Notes under the pieces: generated by a model | Told to the model about the DNA's origin: nothing | Seen by the model: the letters and a program-made list of their open reading frames with translations, nothing else | Databases searched by the model: none | Program-made: the position numbers and the translations under genes | Assembly: GCA_000092065.1 (NCBI GenBank) | Contig: CP000595.1 | Reading direction: 5' to 3' (one strand) | Source: Ostreococcus lucimarinus | Lineage: Eukaryota | Length of the DNA stretch: 64,000 nt | In this document: positions 6,499-62,587 of the stretch, piece after piece | Position numbering within the stretch: position 1 is the stretch's first letter | How the letters are laid out: every line of letters starts with the position of its first letter

Positions 6499-7006
6499 AT
6501 GTCTGGACGAGGTAAAGGAAAATCCGGCAAGAAGGCCACGAGCCGATCCGCCAAGGCGGGCTTGCAATTCCCGGTCGGCCGGGTCGCGCGCTACCTGAAG
6601 GCTGGCAAGTACGCGACGCGCGTCGGCGCCGGTGCGCCGGTGTACTTGGCGGCTGTCATGGTGAGTGGTTTTTTGAAATTTGAAATTTGAAATCGAGCGT
6701 TCGCGGCGCGCGCGGCGATGGGCTCGGGATGGTGGACGAAGACTGACGCGTTGAATCGTTGTGTTTTACGCCGCGTAGGAATACTTGTGCGCCGAAGTGC
6801 TCGAACTCGCGGGTAACGCCGCGCGCGACAACAAGAAGTCGCGCGTCGTGCCGCGCCACATCCAACTCGCGATCCGCAACGACGAAGAGCTCTCCAAGCT
6901 CCTCGGCACCGTCACGATCGCGGCGGGTGGTGTTTTGCCGAACATCCACTCCGTTTTGTTGCCGAAGAAGTCCAAGAAGTCTGGCTCGGCGTCCCAAGAA
7001 TACTAA
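6499..7006 (+). CDS. H2AX: Histone H2A.X; two exons (6499..6660, 6779..7006) with a 118-nt intron at 6661..6778
   Basis: Exon 1 reads [54 protein letters not shown]. The donor is GTGAGT. The intron contains AGACTGACG 31 nt before the AG. Exon 2 reads [75 protein letters not shown]. The C-terminal SQEY is the H2A.X SQ[E/D]-hydrophobic motif. Confidence 0.85.
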
Positions 7007-10854: not shown

Positions 10855-12774
10855 TTACGTCGAGCCTTCGCGGCGCGCGACGGCGGCGCGCATCAACTCG
10901 AGCGCGGATTTGAGAAACGTGGCGTTGGACTTGATGGATGAGATCGTGAACTCGGCGGCGGTGATGATGTCTCTCCACTCGTGTCCGCCGACGGCGACGC
11001 AGAGCTTGATATCGCCCTTGGCGACGGCGCCGACGCGCGCGGCGATGGCGACGCGGCTGAGACGCCACGTCGCGCGCGCGACGCCGGCGATGGTTTCCAA
11101 CGCCATGGTGATTTCTTCGACGGTGATGGACGAGTTTGGTGCGAGCTCCGACGTGCCGGTTTCGGCGGCGACGGAGGTCAGCATGGAAACCTCGGGCGCG
11201 CCCGCGGCGGCGACGGCGGCTTGGCACTGCGCTATGTCGATGGCGCTCTCACTGATTTGAATGAAATCCACACACGTTTTCGACGCCGTCGTCGTCGTGG
11301 ACGAGCGCGGGAGCTTGTCGAACTCGAGCGTGGTGGTGGCTTCTTCAGATTTCACCGCGCGAGATTTTCCGGGCAAAAGTCCCGTCGCCTCCGCCCGCGT
11401 CGTCGTCGCGTCCTCCGAGTGCGTCGTCGCGTCGTCGCTCAAATTCACCTCGTTCACGATCTTCTCGGTGCCGAACTGTTTCAACTGCGCCGAGAGCGCG
11501 ACGTGGTTATCCATGTGTTCGTGCATGTGTTTCAACCCTTGCTCGATTTTTTCGCGCTCTTCGCGAATTAAGCGAAATTGCGAATTAAGCGCCGAACGAC
11601 TCACGCCGCGTTGCTTCCCGCTCGCGTCCTCAGTCTTCGACGTCTTCTTCGCCGGCGCGCTCTTCGCCGCGCCATCCTGCTTCGCCGCGACTACTTTCTC
11701 TTCCGCTTCCTCCATTTCCGCCTCCACCAACGCTTTCGGTCGCGGGTGCAGCGTCATCTGATACTTTTGCAACTCGGTGAGCTTCCACGGTTCCGACTTC
11801 ACCTTGCCCCACTTGCATCGAAGCGTCGCGTGCCAGTGATTCTTGATGGCGTTCTCCGGTCGTCCGGTCAAGAGCTTGGCGAGCGCGGCCCACTTCGTGC
11901 CCAGCACTTTGTGCCCCTCGACGAGGATCAGCTCCTCCTCCTTGCTCCACTCCCCAGTCTTGATTCCGGGTCGAAGGTGGTTCAGGTAACGATCTCGACA
12001 CTGCTTTCCGCGTCTGTGACGCATTAAACTCGCGATGTAACTCCACCGTTTCGCGCCGTATTTATCGATCAACTGCAGCAACTCCTTGTCCTCGCGCACG
12101 GTCCACTGTTGCGTCATCCCTTTAAGTTTACCCTCGCGCATCTCCGCCTCGTACGCGTCGTCTTCGCTCGCGTCGCCGTCGCCGTCGCCGTCGCTCGTCG
12201 AGGCCAACCCGGCGGCGGCGCGCGCCGCCGACCGCGCCGCCATCCCCCGAACCGTCTCTCGCACCTCCGTCTCCACCGTCCCCGCCGTCGCCGCCGTCGA
12301 TTGTCTCTTCATCGGCGGTCGCCCTCGTCGCGCGCGTTTCGTCCTCTCTCGCTCCGGCGCCGCGTTTTCCGCCGCCTGCGCGCGCGTCGCCCGAAAAGTC
12401 AACCGTCAGTCGTCGCGCGCGCCCTCGCGTCTCGCCTCGATCCCGACCTTCCCGCATCTCCCGTTTCGCGCGTCGCCTCGCTCGATCCCGCGCACCTCGA
12501 CCAACCAAAACAACGATCCCGCGTCCTCGACCGCCTTCGCCTTGGGCGGTCGACCGCGTCGTCGTTTCTTCGTCGTCGCCCTCGGTTCCGGCTCTCGCCG
12601 CGCGCGCGCCGTCGCCGCGATCGCCCCTTCGTTCGCCCGCGCCGCGCCGTGCGTCGCCGCCGACAAGTCGTGTTCGCCGGCGACGTCAGTGTCGTTCATT
12701 TTCGCGTCGCCCGCGTCGCGCGCGTGGTTCGCGTCGTCGCGCGACGGCGATTCGTTCGCCGCGACGATCGTCAT
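10855..12774 (-). CDS. R2R3-MYB transcription factor with two AT-hooks; proposed two exons (12774..12496, 12375..10855) with a 120-nt intron at 12376..12495
   Basis: MYB repeats present: WTVREDKELLQLIDKYGAKRWSYIA...EWSKEEELILVEGHKVLGTKWAALAKLLTGRPENAIKNHWHATL. The track start at 12402 is TTG. ORF 12406..12774 begins with a true ATG at 12774 and ends with ...TTKKRRRGRPPKAKAVEDAGSLFWLVE. It is followed by GTGCGC ... CGACTGACG ... 33 nt ... CAG, then joins in frame to AAENAAPERERTKRARRGRPPMKRQ... (a second AT-hook). The alternative single-exon model starts at ATG 12312. Confidence 0.6.
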
Positions 12775-13022
12775 GAAACGCTCACGCGTTGACGATCGTC
12801 GCGCGTTTCCGTCGCGCGCGCGTCGTCGCGCGCGCGCGCGGCGAGGGCGACGTCCGGAGTCGCGGTTTTATCGACGCGTGTCGTTTCGCGCGCGCGTCGA
12901 TCGATCGCGCGACGGGAACGCGCGGTCGACGCGCGGGCACGTGACGCATCATTGGGGTTTCGCTCGAGCGTTTCATTTTTTTCATTTTCGGCGCCGCGTG
13001 TGGACTCGCGCGAGCGCGAGCG

Positions 13023-25157: not shown

Positions 25158-26597
25158 CTAGAGGAAATCGGCGTATCGCGAGGTGAAGTCGCTCTTGCTG
25201 CGTTGGCACCACCCGCTCGAACTGCTGTCGCTCGGATTGACCACGATGTTGTTGTCGAAGTAGATGACGGATCCTGTTTCGAACTCTTCTTTTTCGTTGA
25301 TGATTTTCGGACGGTCGAGTCTCGCGAACCACGTGCCGAGAATCTTGTGAAAACGCCACGAGGAGGCGTGGAGCTCGTTCGCTGCGAGCAATTTGAGTCT
25401 GTCTCTGCCGTAATAGAACGTGAAAAACAAGGCGTCGCTATCGAGACGTTTGAAGAGCGCCGGGTTGTCCAACTGGCATCCGGGCGGTATGTCTCGAGGT
25501 GATCGCGGATACGACGATGGCGTCGCGATTTTACTCTTTTGCGGCGCCGACGCGGATTTCTTTGCGTTCTTCTCGCTCGATAACCGCCAATTCGCATCCG
25601 CGCTGAGTCCTTCGCGCGGAAGCTTGGCGCACGCGATTTCGAGCAAGCGATGGCTGACATGTCGGTCATTTATAACGACGCCGCGAATCGACACGCCCGA
25701 TGGAATATCGGCGTGTTCGAGAGCCATGGCACCGCCGCTCTCGGGCGAAATCTCACCGTACGCGTGTCCGCCGCGCGACAGTTCATCCAGGCTCAACAAT
25801 CCATTCCCGGGTAAATCGAAAATACACGCGTCCGGATGCATCCCGGTCGTAACCTTCGCGCGCGAAGTCGACGCAGACGACTTTTTCGGCGACGTCGCCT
25901 CGAATTTCGCCTGCAAACGATTTACCGCCGCGCCTTCGTCGCCGCCGTCCTCCGAGCGTTTCGGCTTCTTCGCCTGCGCCTCCGCCGGGGTCGAAGGCGT
26001 CGACGTCCCCGACGTCGACGCTTCATCTACCGCCGCTCGCATCGCGCCGTCTTTCCCCGGCGTTTCCAAACGCTCGACGTCCGCCTCGCTCGCCTCGGCT
26101 CCCGCCTCATCGTCGCCGTCGCCGTCCTTCGTCGCGTCCGCCGCCAAAACGCTCTCAAACCACCCGATATCCGCCGCGCACTCCCGCATCGCGTCCTCGA
26201 TCTTCGCCGTCACCGCGTCGTCGACGTCATTGTTTTCTCTGTATTCCATCAACTCCCGCACGAGGTCGCGCAGGCGCGCGATCTCTCGAGTCAACTCCGT
26301 CTGCCCGTTCGTTCGTCGATTCGACGCGATTTCTCTCGTCAGTCTCGTCGCCGTTGACCGACCCTCTCGTCACCGACGCGCCGCCGCGCGCCTTCGCGGC
26401 GACCATCGCGCGCTCGTTCGTCTCGAATCATCGTCCGCGATCGCGTCGCGCACCTCGGCGCGTCGACGCGCGGCGTCGTCGTCGGCGGCGTTCGTCTCGC
26501 GAATCAGCTCGACCGCGCGCGCGGCGTGTTCGCGACACCCATCGATGCGCTTCGTTCGGCTCTGTATCTCCGCCGCGTGTCGTCCGGGAAGCGTCAT
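25158..26597 (-). CDS. CCR4-NOT complex subunit 3/5 (CNOT3-like); proposed two exons (26597..26454, 26300..25158) with a 153-nt intron at 26301..26453
   Basis: C-terminal NOT box (PALFKRLDSDALFFTFYYGRDRLKLLAANELHASSWRFHKILGTWFAR). Track start 26294 is TTG. Upstream exon from ATG 26597 (MTLPGRHAAEIQSRTKRIDGCREHAARAVELIRETNAADDDAARRRAE) ends at GTGCGC; AGACTGACG lies 41 nt before CAG. The joined product ...E|TELTREIARLRDLVRELMEY resembles the CNOT3 N-terminal Not3 domain (EIDRCLKKVSEG...KKEIKKLQRLRDQIKTW). Confidence 0.6.
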
Positions 26598-28521: not shown

Positions 28522-29475
28522 TCATCCGGCATCTGTGACCCGTCGCCGTTCTTCGTCGATCTCCGGTAGCAACGCGTCCACGCGCGCCGCTCTGTGCGCT
28601 TCGTCATACAGTCGTCTGTGCTCTCGCCAGAAAGGCAAGATTTCGCGAAGGGAGACGTGCCCGCCGTCGGCGTCGTGTCGATGCCGATGTCGAGAAAGTG
28701 CGATTTCGAGACCGATTACCGCGTCGGCGTCCGGGAGAATCGGCATCGCTACTTTTTCCCAGGTGAGTCGTAGACTCTGCGCGTGTGGATGCTCTCGCTC
28801 AATCAGGAAGAGTATGACTTCCATGTTCCCATTTGACATGGCACAAAAGTACGTCTTCGCGTCCCAAGGACACCCGTGCTCGTGCGCGTACTTCAAACAC
28901 TCCAAATGTCCATAATTGGCGGCATACCAGCACGTCCACACGTTCCAAGGACACCCTTGCTCGTGTGCGTACTTCAAACACTCCAAATGTCCATTCTTGG
29001 CGGCATACCAGCACGTCTCCTCGTCCCAAGGACACCCGCGCTTGTGCGCGTACTTCAAACACTCCAACTGTCCATTCGAGGCGGCATCACGGCACGTCCA
29101 CACGTCCCAAGGACACCCGCGCTCGTGCGCGTACTTCAAACACTCCAAATGTCCATAACGGGCGGCATTCGCGCACGTCTTCGCGTTCCAAGGATACCCG
29201 AGCGCGCGCGCCTCTACGAGAAGGTCCAACCTCCCCACGGCGGCGCACGCACCAGACACAGTTCCTTGCGCATCCTCTTCCGGTCGTATACCGTCGTCCA
29301 AGGTGGCGATAGCATCCTCAATTGTGTTTCTATACAACCAGTCCACGTTTTCTTCCGCGATTGCCACGAGCGCGGCTCTCAAACGCGCCTGAACTTCACT
29401 CATGTGTGTCTCGCGAGTCGATGTGTGAGGACGCGCCGCCGATAGTCGCGCTCGACCACTCGATGACATTTTCAA
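28522..29475 (-). CDS. Ankyrin-like repeat protein, copy A (five 27-aa GCPWDxxTCxxAAxNGHLECLKYAHExx repeats)
   Basis: 317-aa ORF with five tandem 27-residue repeats encoded by an 81-bp nucleotide repeat. N- and C-termini are nearly identical to copy B. Confidence 0.75.
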   Translation of the reverse strand: MKMSSSGRARLSAARPHTSTRETHMSEVQARLRAALVAIAEENVDWLYRNTIEDAIATLDDGIRPEEDAQGTVSGACAAVGRLDLLVEARALGYPWNAKTCANAARYGHLECLKYAHERGCPWDVWTCRDAASNGQLECLKYAHKRGCPWDEETCWYAAKNGHLECLKYAHEQGCPWNVWTCWYAANYGHLECLKYAHEHGCPWDAKTYFCAMSNGNMEVILFLIEREHPHAQSLRLTWEKVAMPILPDADAVIGLEIALSRHRHRHDADGGHVSLREILPFWREHRRLYDEAHRAARVDALLPEIDEERRRVTDAG

Positions 29476-29572: not shown

Positions 29573-30769
29573 TCATCCGGCATCTGTGACCCGTCGCCGT
29601 TCTTCGTCGATCTCCGGTAGCGACGCGTCCACGCGCGCCGCTCTGTGCGCTTCGTCATACAGTCGTCTGTGCTCTCGCCAGAAAGGCAAGATTTCGCGAA
29701 GGGAGACGTGCCCGCCGTCGGCGTCGTGTCGATGCCGATGTCGAGAAAGTGCGATTTCGAGACCGATTACCGCGTCGGCGTCCGGGAGAATCGGCATCGC
29801 TACTTTTTCCCAGGTGAGTCGTAGACTCTGCGCGTGTGGATGCTCTCGCTCAATCAGGAAGAGTATGACTTCCATGTTCCCATTTGACATGGCACAAAAG
29901 TACGTCTTCGCGTCCCAAGGACACCCGCGCTCGTGCGCGTACTTCAAACACTCCAAATGTCCATACTTGGCGGCATACCAGCACGTCTTCGCGTCCCAAG
30001 GACACCCTTGCTCGTGCGCGTACTTCAAACACTCCAAATGTCCATTCTTGGCGGCATACCAGCACGTCTCCTCGTCCCAAGGACACCCGCGCTTGTGCGC
30101 GTACTTCAAACACTCCAACTGTCCATTCGAGGCGGCATCACGGCACGTCCACACGTCCCAAGGACACCCGCGCTTGTGCGCGTACTTCAAACACTCCAAC
30201 TGTCCATTCGAGGCGGCATGCGCGCACGTCCACACGTCCCAAGGACACCCGCGCTCGTGCGCGTACTTCAAACACTCCAAATGTCCATTATTGGCGGCAA
30301 ATGAGCACGTCGACGTGTTCCAAGGACACCCGTTCTCGTGCGCGTACTTCAGACAGTCCAAATGTCCACCATCGGCGGCATCCATGCACGTCTTCTCGTC
30401 CCAAGGACACCCGTGCTCGTGCGCGTACTTCAAAATCCTAAAATATCCAGACGAGGCGGCATTCGCGCACGTCTTCGCGTTCCAAGGATACCCGAGCACG
30501 CGCGCCTCTACGAGAAGGTCCAACCTCCCCACGGCGGCGCACGCACCAGACACAGTTCCTTCCGCATCCTCTTCCGGTCGTATACCGTCGTCCAAGGTGG
30601 CGATAGCATCCTCAATTTCTTCTTCATACAAAGCGTTCACGTCTTCTTCCGCGATTGCCACGAGCGCGGCTCTCAAACGCGCCTGAACTTCACTCATGTG
30701 TGTCTCGCGAGTCGATGTGTGAGGACGCGCCGCCGATAATCGCGCTCGACCACTCGATGACATTTTCAA
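29573..30769 (-). CDS. Ankyrin-like repeat protein, copy B (eight 27-aa repeats)
   Basis: 398-aa paralogue of copy A. It has the same N-terminus (MKMSSSGRARLSAARPHTSTRETHMSEVQARLRAALVAIAEE) and C-terminus (...REILPFWREHRRLYDEAHRAARVDA.LPEIDEERRRVTDAG), plus three extra repeats. Confidence 0.75.
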   Translation of the reverse strand: MKMSSSGRARLSAARPHTSTRETHMSEVQARLRAALVAIAEEDVNALYEEEIEDAIATLDDGIRPEEDAEGTVSGACAAVGRLDLLVEARVLGYPWNAKTCANAASSGYFRILKYAHEHGCPWDEKTCMDAADGGHLDCLKYAHENGCPWNTSTCSFAANNGHLECLKYAHERGCPWDVWTCAHAASNGQLECLKYAHKRGCPWDVWTCRDAASNGQLECLKYAHKRGCPWDEETCWYAAKNGHLECLKYAHEQGCPWDAKTCWYAAKYGHLECLKYAHERGCPWDAKTYFCAMSNGNMEVILFLIEREHPHAQSLRLTWEKVAMPILPDADAVIGLEIALSRHRHRHDADGGHVSLREILPFWREHRRLYDEAHRAARVDASLPEIDEERRRVTDAG

Positions 30770-36828: not shown

Positions 36829-37002
36829 TACCGGCGCAGGGGCTCGAACCCTGGACCACAAGCTTTCGCTACGCGAAACCTGAGAATGCGATTGGGAGCG
36901 CGAACTCCCCGCTTCGCTCGGATTTATTTTTTCGGACCCGATATTCATCGGGAAACCTCATATATTAAGAGGCTTGCGCTCTACCAACTGAGCTACGTCG
37001 GC
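36829..37002 (-). tRNA. tRNA-Lys (anticodon CUU) with an intron of ~100 nt between positions 37 and 38
   Basis: Minus-strand sequence. Acceptor GCCGACG; D-arm UAGCUCAGUUGGUAGAGC; anticodon stem-loop G-CAAGC-CUCUUA; an intervening sequence of about 101 nt; then A-GCUUG, variable loop UGGUC, T-arm CAGGGUUCGAGCCCCUG, acceptor CGCCGGU and discriminator A. One A-C mismatch in the acceptor stem (5:68). Boundaries are within 2 nt. Confidence 0.7.
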
Positions 37003-41288: not shown

Positions 41289-41497
41289 GCGTCTTAGCAA
41301 CGGACCATTTAGCTCGTTTGTCATTACGAACACACACCCTAATGACCCTAATGAAATTAAGAAACAGTCGCCAGCAGGCTGTGCGACCGCGCTACTTTGA
41401 CTAACTCTCTAGATTATGCTACAAAAACCGTGCTACTACTAATCGCGGCGAGAAGACGGCTCAACTTCTCATCGCTCTATAACAAACGACGCGTTTG

Positions 41498-60335: not shown

Positions 60336-61075
60336 TCAACCGGGATAGGTCTCGGTGAGCGCGGATAACGTCTTCGGTAAGCCGACGAATTTCAACTCGC
60401 CCCACTGTCGCCACGCGAAGGCGCACGTTAAACAGTTGAGCACGATGGTCGCCGCGGCGAAAATCAGGGAAACCAAACTGTAATCTGCGTTTTTGCACAC
60501 GTAATAATCCGAACTCAATACCACGGACGCGCACTCGGTGATGGACATGACGACGAACGTCGCCATGGCCGCGGTGAACAGCGCGTAGGACGCGAACTCC
60601 GTCCCGGGCGGCGGCGCCTTGCGAATCACGTACATCGCGATCAAGATCACCGTGTACGCCCAGAATCCCGCGTACACACCGACGACGCCCTTAAATTGAT
60701 AAAACTTCGTGAATCCACACCCCGCTTCACCGCAGTCGTTCAGCGTGCTCAGCTCCGGCCCCGCCAGTCCCTCGGTTTGTTTCGCCATGAACGAAAACGT
60801 CGTCAACGCCATCAACTGTTCGTTCGTCGTCGTCGTCGCGTCCTAGGTCAGTCTCCGCGCGTGCGAGTTCACCGTCGCGTCGCGTCGCGTCGCGTCGCGT
60901 CGCGTCGCGTCCCACGCACGCTCTCCACGAGCAACGCTCGAAACTTTGGATTCTTCATCAGCCTGTGATTCATCAGCGACGTCCCCTCCACGCTCGCTCC
61001 CACGCGTTTCAGCAGCGGTTCCCGCGCTTCGTCCGACGCCCCGGGCGCGTCGTCCATCGTCTCATCGCTCGCCAT
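60336..61075 (-). CDS. Hypothetical four-TM small membrane protein; proposed two exons (61075..60920, 60815..60336) with a 104-nt intron
   Basis: Exon 1 from ATG 61075 reads MASDETMDDAPGASDEAREPLLKRVGASVEGTSLMNHRLMKNPKFRALLVES and ends at the donor GTGCGT. The intron contains a (GCGTC)n run and AGACTGACC 31 nt before ACAG. Exon 2 (track ORF 60336..60815) reads LMALTTFSFMAKQTEGLAGPELSTLNDCGEAGCGF...FWAYTVILIAMYVIRK...FTAAMATFVVMSI...SLVSLIFAAATIVLNCL... Track ORF 60869..61294 otherwise runs into RRDATRRDAT repeat junk. Confidence 0.45.
60874..60913. repeat. (GCGTC)8 pentanucleotide repeat inside the proposed intron
   Basis: cgtcgcgtcgcgtcgcgtcgcgtcgcgtcgcgtcgcgtc. Confidence 0.8.
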
Positions 61076-61413: not shown

Positions 61414-62587
61414 ATGCCCCCGTCGACGACGCTGCTCCGCGCGCGCGATCTCGAGCGCGCGCTCGCCGAGCCGTGGCCGAACGCGCGATGCGCCACGGCG
61501 CTCGACGACGCGATGATCGACGCGCTGAAAAATCGGTTCGCGATCATGACGCCGTTCGCGAGGCGCGGGGCGGTGTGCGCGGCGATGTTGGCGTCGAAAC
61601 GCGCGACGAGCGCGCGCGCGATCGCGACGTGGCGGGACGTCGCGGCGGGAGACGCGGATGAGTGGGTGCGAGCGATGGCGCGGGCGATGGATGAAAGCGG
61701 GGAAAGATTCGATTGCGACCGATTCGCGACGGATGTGCCGGTGGTGCGTGTGCGAGCGATGCGCGAGCGAGGGGAATGCGACGAGAATTCATTCGGGAAG
61801 GCACCGTGGTGTGAATGAACCCTAACGCGAAGGACGCGGGAAACGACGCGGGAAACGACGCGGGAAACGATTACTGACGAATGAACGCCGCGGTGTTTGG
61901 TAAACTTAGGTGAATACCGCCGTGCGGGCGATAAAGGAGACGATTGCGAACGCGGGGGAGGATGGGATGACGCGAAGACCGCGCGCCGACGCCTACCTGA
62001 CGATGAAAGAGCCGACGGCGCATGGACACTTCACGCTGAGAGAACGGCGCGAGCCGAAGAAGCGGCCGATGAGTGCGGGAAGTCGAGGTGCAACGATCGC
62101 GGGCGATGGTTCGTCGCAAGTGAATCGCGCGCAGGCGAACATCTTTGCGCCGTCGCGCAAGCCGACGGCCAGCGGAGGCGCTTCGTTTTTGCGCGACACG
62201 GGTCGATCTGGCAGTGTCGGTGCCGCGCGTTCGCGAGTCGGTGGCGGCATTCCTCGTCCAGGGGCGAAGACTATGGTCATCGACGTCGCCGAAGCCGCGC
62301 AACTCGGCGCTACTTCGCAAATCGACGATCCTCTCCGAGCGCAAGCGCAGGAGGAACGCGATCGCAAACGTCAACGAGAAAAGGAGGCCAAGGAGCAACG
62401 CATGCAGAGATTGATGCAAGAAATCGAGGCAAAGAAACAAAGGGAATTGACGAGAAAACGCGAACGCGACGAAGAAATTTTGGAGAAGAAGAAGGCTTAC
62501 CGGGCGGAGATTGAAGCAAAGCGCGCGAACAAGCGCGTCGCTTCCATCGCCACGCCGTCGCCCACGGACGAACCGGCGACGTGGTGA
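61414..62587 (+). CDS. Hypothetical protein with C-terminal charged coiled coil; proposed two exons (61414..61743, 61910..62587) with a 166-nt intron
   Basis: Exon 1 (true ATG) reads MPPSTTLLRARDLERALAEPWPNARCATALDDAMIDALKNRFAIMTPFARRGAVCAAM...DCDRFATDVPV and is followed by GTGCGT. The intron carries 3x gacgcgggaaac tandem repeats and TTACTGACG 32 nt before TTAG. Exon 2 starts exactly at the first codon after that AG (track ORF 61910 has a GTG 'start') and reads VNTAVRAIKETIANAGEDG...EERDRKRQREKEAKEQRMQRLMQEIEAKKQRELTRKRERDEEILEKKKAYRAEIEAKR... Confidence 0.45.

What the first reader, a model, noticed from the sequence alone, without database searches (positions are those of the whole stretch)
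12376..12774. MYB gene gains an upstream AT-hook exon via a 5' intron
The ORF-track MYB model starts at a TTG. A separate 93-codon ORF upstream (ATG 12774) ends in an AT-hook (KKRRRGRPPKAK). It ends precisely at GTGCGC and is followed by CGACTGACG, then a CAG 33 nt later. Splicing joins it in frame to AAENAAPERERTKRARRGRPPMKRQ..., which carries a second AT-hook, and then to the R2R3 MYB repeats. This gives a 600-aa AT-hook plus MYB factor. The alternative is a 486-aa single-exon protein from ATG 12312.
Basis: inference. Interest (0 to 1): 0.5.

Follow-up and report, generated by a model that had tools for sequence, protein, structure and literature searches.

The report
Two-exon AT-hook MYB gene, confirmed

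Summary
On the minus strand, ATG 12774 opens 93 codons ending ...KKRRRGRPPKAKAVEDAGSLFWLVE. GTGCGC follows at 12495, CGACTGACG lies at 12412-12404 and CAG at 12378-12376. Removing these 120 nt joins exon 1 in frame to AAENAAPERERTKRARRGRPP... and gives 599 aa.

Seven other green-algal lineages have a first exon ending SL[FL]WLV[EQ]|GT[GA]CG, a CTGAC branch motif, a YAG acceptor and a second exon starting AA[ES][NK]. Their introns are 101-646 nt, cover all three length classes modulo 3, and all contain an in-frame stop. In one lineage no ATG lies between the acceptor and the MYB domain.

The annotated O. tauri protein OUS44266.1 has exactly this junction (…SLFWLVQAAENAAP…). The splice signals match the published Ostreococcus consensus (GTGCGTG, GACTGACG). 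A histone H2A intron in the same window uses the same branch motif.

This is a routine spliceosomal intron in a gene that intron-blind gene callers split in two. Exon-1 AT-hooks occur only in some Mamiellophyceae-type lineages.

The parts
12775..12783 (-). Conserved GAGCGTTTC element directly upstream of the start codon; probably 5'-UTR or core promoter.
   Evidence: Found 0-24 nt upstream of the exon-1 ATG in the window, L001, L008, L011 and L014. Within the window its count is not above chance. The inference rests on positional conservation across lineages.
12496..12774 (-). Exon 1 coding part: 93 codons from ATG 12774 to ...SLFWLVE.
   Evidence: The ATG and the 93-codon length are the same in relative L001. 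Codons 49-93 give dN/dS 0.39 in this frame, while one of the two control frames gives pN > pS. The MTIV... start is kept in all population variants.
12535..12570 (-). AT-hook 1, KKRRRGRPPKAK (RGRP core with basic flanks).
   Evidence: Read directly from the sequence. Pfam AT_hook is the top hit but below its cut-off (11.3 against 17.4 bits). An RGRP core sits in the same place in L001, L008, L014 and L011.
12496..12516 (-). SLFWLVE motif at the 3' end of exon 1.
   Evidence: SL[FL]WLV[EQ] directly precedes the donor in all 8 lineages, including the distant alga L016.
12376..12495 (-). Spliceosomal intron, 120 nt, phase 0. Donor GTGCGC at 12495-12490, branch motif CGACTGACG at 12412-12404 (putative branch A at 12406), acceptor CAG at 12378-12376.
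   Evidence: The signals match the O. lucimarinus EST-confirmed consensus GTGCGTG / GACTGACG (PMC2483917). Reading through meets TGA at codon 30. It is not a repeated element in the window and has no unusual RNA structure (z = 0.27).
10855..12375 (-). Exon 2: 506 codons plus the stop, beginning AAENAAPERERTKRARRGRPPMKRQ...
   Evidence: Collinear with single-ORF homologues P0001-P0036.
12304..12339 (-). AT-hook 2, KRARRGRPPMKR; its M is the ATG at 12312.
   Evidence: An RGRP core 10-35 residues after the acceptor is conserved in 7 of 8 lineages.
11791..12111 (-). Two MYB repeats of the c-Myb R2R3 type.
   Evidence: Pfam Myb_DNA-binding, 92 bits, 2 stretches. Foldseek matches c-Myb R2R3 structures 1H89 and 1GV2 at 48-51% identity.
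10921..11274 (-). C-terminal MoaE-fold domain.
   Evidence: Pfam MoaE 29.4 bits, above the 23.4 cut-off. E. coli MoaE matches at E = 0.013. The AlphaFold segment has pLDDT 86-95. Foldseek to E. coli MoaE 1NVJ_E gives TM 0.87 and rmsd 1.7 A.

Best explanation
This is one two-exon nuclear gene of a compact, GC-rich Mamiellophyceae-type green alga. Transcription starts shortly upstream of 12783 (inferred). Translation starts at ATG 12774 (inferred from conservation). A standard U2-type intron (12495-12376; GTGCGC ... CGACTGACG ... CAG) is removed in phase 0. That joins ...RGRPPKAKAVEDAGSLFWLVE to AAENAAPERERTKRARRGRPP... and gives a 599-aa protein. Its parts, in order, are a disordered N-terminus, two AT-hooks, c-Myb-type R2R3 MYB repeats, a long helix and a C-terminal MoaE-fold domain. 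The AT-hooks would add minor-groove contacts to AT-rich DNA next to the MYB's major-groove site; this follows from established knowledge of HMGA-type AT-hooks and was not tested. The 485-aa and 122-aa ORFs found in metagenome protein sets are artefacts of intron-blind gene calling.
For: - Frame and signals are verified.
- Eight lineages share the exon-1 end SL[FL]WLV[EQ], a GT[GA]CG donor, CTGAC 26-45 nt before YAG, and an exon-2 start AA[ES][NK]. Intron lengths are 120, 121, 101, 102, 115, 147, 148 and 646 nt (all three residues modulo 3), and each has an in-frame stop. Only splicing keeps the frame.
- Window against L001: the alignment degrades just after GTGCG, recovers at the branch motif, and is 92% identical in the 63 nt between the acceptor and ATG 12312. 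Codons 49-93 of exon 1 give dN/dS 0.39.
- In L015 the first ATG of exon 2 lies after the start of the MYB domain. In L008 and L011 it lies only 2-10 residues before it. The single-exon model therefore fails or loses conserved sequence there.
- The annotated O. tauri OUS44266.1 (588 aa) reads ...ASLFWLVQAAENAAP..., and BLASTP aligns straight through the junction.
- The splice signals equal the published Ostreococcus consensus (PMC2483917).
- The histone H2A intron at 6661-6778 in this window uses GACTGACG/TAG and restores a perfect H2A sequence.
- A GAGCGTTTC element is conserved just upstream of the exon-1 ATG in 5 lineages.
Against: - There is no transcript evidence for this organism. Two scans of metagenome contigs for the spliced junction returned only chance matches. 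A protein search with the spliced N-terminus found only unspliced 122-aa ORF calls.
- The first 48 codons of exon 1 are poorly conserved (ungapped dN/dS > 1 against L001), so the exact start codon rests on ATG conservation alone.
- The other O. tauri annotation (CEG00323.1) uses a different exon-1 end, 8 codons upstream.
- Both AT-hooks score below Pfam's cut-off.
Confidence: 0.9

Rival explanations
1. Single-exon gene: translation starts at ATG 12312 and gives 485 aa. The upstream 122-codon ORF is a separate small gene or is non-coding.
For: Intron-blind gene callers produce exactly these two ORFs: P0001 at 485 aa and P0051-P0063 at 122 aa. ATG 12312 is conserved in L001.
Against: The 63 nt upstream of ATG 12312 (AAENAAP plus the RGRP core) are 92% identical to L001 and conserved as protein across lineages at about 45% overall identity. 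The equivalent Met is absent in L008, L011, L010, L014 and L015, and in L015 no ATG precedes the MYB domain. The 122-aa ORF loses conservation and frame exactly at the GT; L001 has a stop 4 codons later.
Confidence: 0.04
2. The gene is spliced as proposed, but translation starts at the second in-frame ATG of exon 1 (M26, 12699), because the transcript starts downstream of 12774.
For: ATG 12774 directly abuts the conserved GAGCGTTTC element, which could be a promoter element rather than 5'-UTR. Its Kozak context is poor (T at -3). The first half of exon 1 is weakly constrained.
Against: L001 has only one in-frame ATG in exon 1, the one homologous to 12774. MTI... is conserved in all variants. 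Both O. tauri annotations start at the equivalent first ATG.
Confidence: 0.05
3. The intron is sometimes retained, giving a 122-aa AT-hook-only protein alongside the full-length factor. This would coexist with the main explanation rather than replace it.
For: The 122-codon read-through ORF keeps its length in most close variants.
Against: Its stop is the TGA inside the conserved branch motif, so the length is fixed by the splice signal. Relatives stop after 4-30 codons with no conserved read-through peptide. Two variants have a 9-nt deletion in the intron part.
Confidence: 0.05

Closest known systems
Ostreococcus tauri SANT/Myb-domain protein OUS44266.1 (UniProt A0A1Y5I425; 588 aa)
   Same: It is the orthologue by synteny: the neighbouring ABC-F gene lies upstream in both. 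It is 46% identical over 531 aligned columns, and the alignment runs through the same spliced junction ...SLFWLVQ|AAENAAP.... It has an AT-hook on each side of the junction, R2R3 MYB repeats and a MoaE-like C-terminus.
   Different: Exon 1 carries a long RG-repeat (GRGRGRGRP) in place of the window's acidic and Ala-rich start. The donor is GTACGT, the acceptor is TAG and the intron is 102 nt. A second O. tauri model (CEG00323.1 / XP_022840319.1) ends exon 1 eight codons earlier.
Strong-signal spliceosomal introns of Ostreococcus outside chromosome 2 (Irimia & Roy 2008, PMC2483917)
   Same: The window's donor GTGCGCG matches the consensus GTGCGTG. The branch motif GACTGACG is the published extended motif, which is found in 66.5% of EST-confirmed introns; 87% contain ACTGAC. 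Intron length is about 100-170 nt and the intron is GC-rich.
   Different: The window's organism is not Ostreococcus; its ABC-F protein is about 70% identical. The consensus was therefore transferred to it, and checked here only on the H2A intron.
c-Myb / plant R2R3-type MYB DNA-binding domain
   Same: Two Myb repeats, 48-51% identical to c-Myb R2R3 structures 1H89 and 1GV2.
   Different: It has no R1 repeat. It is flanked by AT-hooks and fused to a MoaE-fold domain.
HMGA-type AT-hook
   Same: An R-G-R-P core with Lys/Arg flanks, present twice.
   Different: It scores below Pfam's cut-off. The residue after the core is Pro (RGRPP) rather than the commoner RGRPK/R. DNA binding was not tested.
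MoaE / MOCS2B, the large subunit of molybdopterin synthase
   Same: The fold matches (TM 0.87 to E. coli MoaE 1NVJ). Pfam scores above its cut-off. Lysines align with the two lysines of E. coli's ...LKTRAPFWKR segment. Identifying those as the catalytic K119 and K126 is from my memory.
   Different: Here it is a C-terminal domain of a transcription factor at 13-23% identity. Nothing indicates enzymatic activity or a MoaD partner.

Membership tests
U2-type spliceosomal intron (Mamiellales strong-signal class) | GT donor with the extended consensus GTGCGY | tested here: met
   GTGCGC at 12495-12490. The published consensus is GTGCGTG.
U2-type spliceosomal intron (Mamiellales strong-signal class) | ACTGAC / GACTGACG branch motif a short distance upstream of a YAG acceptor | tested here: met
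   CGACTGACG at 12412-12404. CTGAC starts 34 nt from the intron's 3' end. Acceptor CAG at 12378-12376.
U2-type spliceosomal intron (Mamiellales strong-signal class) | Removal restores one continuous reading frame, and read-through does not | tested here: met
   Phase-0 join giving 599 aa. Read-through meets TGA at codon 30.
U2-type spliceosomal intron (Mamiellales strong-signal class) | Position conserved in orthologues while length and sequence vary | tested here: met
   Eight lineages, introns of 101-646 nt, covering lengths 0, 1 and 2 modulo 3.
U2-type spliceosomal intron (Mamiellales strong-signal class) | Spliced transcripts observed | not testable with these tools
   Junction scans of metagenome contigs gave only chance hits. 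No transcript-derived protein was found.
AT-hook motif | R-G-R-P core flanked by basic residues | tested here: met
   KKRRRGRPPKAK in exon 1 and KRARRGRPPMKR in exon 2.
AT-hook motif | Pfam PF02178 score at or above the gathering cut-off | tested here: not met
   11.3 and 9.5 bits against a cut-off of 17.4. It is the top-ranked family. The model is only 13 residues long, so a sub-threshold score is weak evidence against membership.
AT-hook motif | Binds the minor groove of AT-rich DNA | not testable with these tools
   Needs EMSA or footprinting.
R2R3-type MYB | Two adjacent Myb repeats above the Pfam cut-off | tested here: met
   PF00249 at 92.1 bits with 2 stretches, covering residues 182-288.
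R2R3-type MYB | Fold superposes on c-Myb R2R3 | tested here: met
   1H89_C at E = 2.5e-9 and 48% identity; 1GV2 at 51% identity.
MoaE (molybdopterin synthase large subunit) | Pfam PF02391 above its cut-off, and a MoaE fold | tested here: met
   29.4 bits against 23.4. 1NVJ_E gives TM 0.87 and rmsd 1.7 A; human MOCS2B gives TM 0.73.
MoaE (molybdopterin synthase large subunit) | Catalytic lysines and MoaD-dependent molybdopterin synthase activity | tested here: inconclusive
   Lysines align with both lysines of the E. coli LKTRAPFWKR segment. One Lys (K482 in exon-2 numbering) is invariant in 23 homologues. Activity and partner are not testable here. I do not file the protein as an enzyme.

The most novel reading that the evidence does not exclude
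The splice itself is ordinary. The least ordinary reading the evidence allows concerns the whole protein. It would be a transcription-factor family found widely across green algae: a first exon ending SLFWLVE, an ancient phase-0 intron, c-Myb-type R2R3 repeats and a C-terminal MoaE-fold domain. In this reading the MoaE-fold domain acts as a sensor, for example by binding a MoaD/ubiquitin-like C-terminal tail or a pterin intermediate. That would couple molybdenum-cofactor or sulfur-carrier status, and so nitrate assimilation, to transcription. I found no paper describing a Myb-MoaE fusion.
Probability: 0.1. Interest if true: 0.6.

Novelty: already known. Interest (0 to 1): 0.15.

Why it matters
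The practical value is a correct gene model. Intron-blind gene calls in metagenome protein collections split this gene into a 122-aa orphan ORF and a 485-aa MYB that lacks its first AT-hook and the conserved SLFWLVE|AAENAAP segment. The correct model is a 599-aa protein. No new biology follows from the intron: its signals, size and phase are textbook for Mamiellales, and the O. tauri orthologue is already annotated this way. Comparison also shows which of the two conflicting O. tauri reference models is likely right; OUS44266.1 keeps the conserved SLFWLVQ. The fused MoaE-fold domain is the feature most worth a specialist's attention.

Tried and rejected
- Introner or repeat element: I compared the intron with the whole window by BLAST and found only short GC-rich chance matches. 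It is not a repeated element here.
- Direct transcript evidence: two scans of JGI metagenome contigs for the spliced junction. The 38-nt pattern gave 0 hits. The 23-nt pattern gave 2 hits (L012, L013) that are unrelated sequence.
- Annotated spliced models of close relatives: a protein search with the spliced N-terminus returned only unspliced 122-aa ORFs.
- Alternative donor as in O. tauri CEG00323.1, eight codons upstream: the window has TCGTTG at that position, with no GT or GC, so this does not apply.
- A structured RNA or snoRNA inside the intron: Rfam found nothing there and the fold z-score is 0.27.
- The internal match GTGCGC...CAG at 12099-12001: rejected, because it would delete conserved MYB R2 residues.
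- Naming the organism: the ABC-F neighbour is 99% identical to unnamed ENA contigs, 89% to the L001 lineage and only about 66-70% to Ostreococcus-, Micromonas- and Bathycoccus-type sequences.
- Literature on a Myb-MoaE fusion: none found. The two Chlamydomonas papers mention MoaE only as the enzyme.

Full report
**What is there.**
- Reading the minus strand, ATG 12774 opens 93 codons (12774-12496): MTIVAANESP...TTKKRRRGRPPKAKAVEDAGSLFWLVE.
- The next bases are GTGCGC (12495-12490). CGACTGACG lies at 12412-12404 and CAG at 12378-12376.
- Removing 12495-12376 (exactly 120 nt) joins exon 1 in phase 0 to GCG GCG GAA AAC... This is AAENAAPERERTKRARRGRPPMKRQ..., in the frame of the long ORF that the ORF listing starts at TTG 12402 and ends at 10855.
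- The spliced product is 599 aa. The ATG-12312 alternative is 485 aa.
- Unspliced, the upstream ORF runs 29 codons further, to the TGA inside the branch motif (122 aa in total).
- Pfam finds two Myb repeats at residues 182-288 (92 bits) and a C-terminal MoaE match above its cut-off (29.4 against 23.4 bits).
- Pfam ranks AT_hook first for both RGRP segments, but below its cut-off.

**Is the splice pattern more than chance?**
- The arrangement GT[GA]CG[CT]...ACTGAC...YAG occurs 10 times in the window, against 3.9 +/- 1.7 (maximum 8) in Markov-1 resamples.
- ACTGAC itself is not enriched (15 observed against about 19 expected). Two thirds of its copies therefore sit in intron-like contexts.
- One such context can be checked independently. 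Splicing 6661-6778 (GTGAGT...GACTGACG...TAG) restores an uninterrupted histone H2A sequence...[10 protein letters not shown]|[20 protein letters not shown]....
- The signals match what Irimia & Roy (PMC2483917) reported for EST-confirmed Ostreococcus lucimarinus introns outside chromosome 2. There, 87% carry ACTGAC, 66.5% carry GACTGACG, and the 5' consensus is the atypical GTGCGTG.

**Comparative test.**
- The full protein finds many homologues. Most top hits are intron-blind ORF calls from metagenome assemblies; P0001 is the 485-aa call of this very gene.
- I fetched the DNA of seven other lineages.
- Five share the upstream ABC-F neighbour on long enough contigs; L010's short contig shows only a cut ORF there, and L016 lies in a different neighbourhood.
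- In all seven, a first exon ends SL[FL]WLV[EQ] immediately before GT[GA]CG. A CTGAC lies 26-45 nt before a YAG, and the next exon begins AA[ES][NK].
- Intron lengths for the window and the seven relatives are 120, 121, 101, 102, 115, 147, 148 and 646 nt. All three residues modulo 3 occur, and every intron has an in-frame stop. The two coding parts are in frame only after splicing.
- Between the window and its closest relative L001 (83% protein identity), the DNA alignment falls apart right after GTGCG. It recovers at CGACGACTGACGGTTGACTTTT and again at GCAG|GCGGCGGAAAAC.
- Against L001, the intron is 75% identical with indels. The 63 nt between the acceptor and ATG 12312 are 92% identical with no indels. 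Codons 49-93 of exon 1 give dN/dS 0.39 in the proposed frame.
- In the Bathycoccus-like locus L015, the first ATG of exon 2 lies after the start of the MYB domain. In L008 and L011 it lies only 2-10 residues before it. A single-exon gene is therefore not viable in L015 and would lose conserved sequence in L008 and L011.
- A GAGCGTTTC element sits 0-24 nt upstream of the exon-1 ATG in five lineages. This marks that ATG as the conserved start region.

**Already annotated in an orthologue.**
- The 90%-identity cluster of the O. tauri-type homologue contains two named proteins.
- OUS44266.1 (588 aa) reads ...GRGRGRGRPKRAGSTEDQDAGASLFWLVQAAENAAPTDGAKRKRGRPKK..., which is the same junction. BLASTP of the window's spliced protein aligns through it (46% identity, E = 1e-121).
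- The other model, CEG00323.1 / XP_022840319.1, joins ...DQDAG directly to AAENAAP and so skips the eight residues ASLFWLVQ, which include the motif conserved everywhere.
- At the DNA level, the canonical GTACGT donor follows SLFWLVQ (L014). OUS44266.1 is therefore the better model.

**What could not be shown.**
- I found no transcript evidence. Scans of metagenome contigs for the spliced junction gave nothing real.
- A search with the spliced N-terminus found only unspliced 122-aa ORFs.
- The first 48 codons of exon 1 evolve fast, so the choice of ATG 12774 over M26 rests on conservation of the ATG. L001 has only that one in-frame ATG in exon 1.
Its ABC-F neighbour is about 66-70% identical to Ostreococcus-, Micromonas- and Bathycoccus-type sequences.

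**Mechanism.**
- Supported by comparison: a two-exon gene with an ordinary phase-0 spliceosomal intron near the 5' end, which intron-blind callers split in two.
- Inferred: the protein is a DNA-binding factor in which two AT-hooks supplement the R2R3 MYB domain (48-51% identical to c-Myb R2R3). The AT-hook role follows from established knowledge of HMGA-type hooks.
- The exon-1 AT-hook is present in 5 of 8 lineages and the exon-2 hook in 7 of 8. Both are absent in the distant alga L016, which still has the SLFWLVE exon and the intron.
- The exon and intron are therefore old, and the hooks are a Mamiellophyceae-type elaboration. 'Gains an exon' is not the right history.

**Side finding.**
- The C-terminal 120 residues are a confident MoaE fold. 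pLDDT is 86-95. TM is 0.87 and rmsd 1.7 A to E. coli MoaE 1NVJ_E, and TM is 0.73 to human MOCS2B.
- Lysines align with both lysines of the E. coli LKTRAPFWKR segment, and one Lys is invariant in 23 homologues.
- The MYB-MoaE combination is present in nearly all homologues, including distant green algae. Some pipelines label these proteins 'molybdopterin synthase catalytic subunit'.
- I found no paper on such a fusion.

**Verdict.** The feature is ordinary and is already represented in public annotation of an orthologue, so interest is low.

Noticed in passing
window 10921-11274 (-): The MYB protein ends in a confident MoaE-fold domain: Pfam is above its cut-off and TM is 0.87 to E. coli MoaE. 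The fusion is conserved in nearly all homologues, including distant green algae, and one Lys is invariant. Some IMG annotations call these proteins 'molybdopterin synthase catalytic subunit'. I found no paper on a Myb-MoaE fusion.
   Followed up: partly
L016 1719-2535: A distant green alga (unnamed ENA contig of 1.07 Mb, 69% GC) keeps the same first-exon end, NSLFWLVE|GTGCGT, and the same phase-0 intron position. Its intron is 646 nt and it has no AT-hooks. The exon and intron therefore predate the AT-hooks.
   Followed up: yes
L014 2190-2320 (O. tauri-type locus): The two public O. tauri models of this gene disagree. OUS44266.1 splices after SLFWLVQ at a canonical GTACGT. CEG00323.1 / XP_022840319.1 omits ASLFWLVQ and also has a different C-terminus. 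Cross-lineage conservation favours OUS44266.1.
   Followed up: partly
window 12775-12783 (-) and 12966-12974 (+): A GAGCGTTTC element lies directly upstream of the exon-1 ATG. It is conserved at 0-24 nt from the ATG in five lineages. An inverted copy (GAAACGCTC) lies about 190 nt upstream in the window and in L001. It may be a promoter or 5'-UTR element.
   Followed up: partly
window 6661-6778 (+): The histone H2A gene has a 118-nt intron (GTGAGT...GACTGACG...TAG). Splicing restores ...[10 protein letters not shown]|[20 protein letters not shown].... This is a useful calibration of the genome's intron signals.
   Followed up: yes
window 26301-26453 (-), 60816-60919 (-), 61744-61909 (+): Three further candidate introns have GTGCG donors, ACTGAC branch motifs and long open frames on both sides. 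The first lies in a gene whose C-terminus looks like a NOT2/3/5 domain; that is from my memory and was not scanned.
   Followed up: partly
window 36829-37002 (-): Rfam reports a tRNA (48 bits) spanning 174 nt, which suggests a tRNA gene with an intron of about 100 nt. ARAGORN finds no tRNA there.
   Followed up: partly
window 28777-29053 and 29828-30104 (-): Two near-identical blocks lie about 1050 nt apart. Each contains GTACGCGCAC... units spaced 81 nt apart. This looks like a tandemly repetitive coding or duplicated segment (seen in the pattern scan).
   Followed up: no
window 12631-12774 (-): The first 48 codons of exon 1 vary a great deal even among close population variants that are 73-90% identical over the 122-aa ORF. 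The last 45 codons are nearly invariant. The exon is 93 codons in both the window and L001.
   Followed up: partly
window about 41320-41350 (+): A short CCCTAATGACCCTAATGA stretch resembling a telomere repeat appeared in the pattern scan.
   Followed up: no
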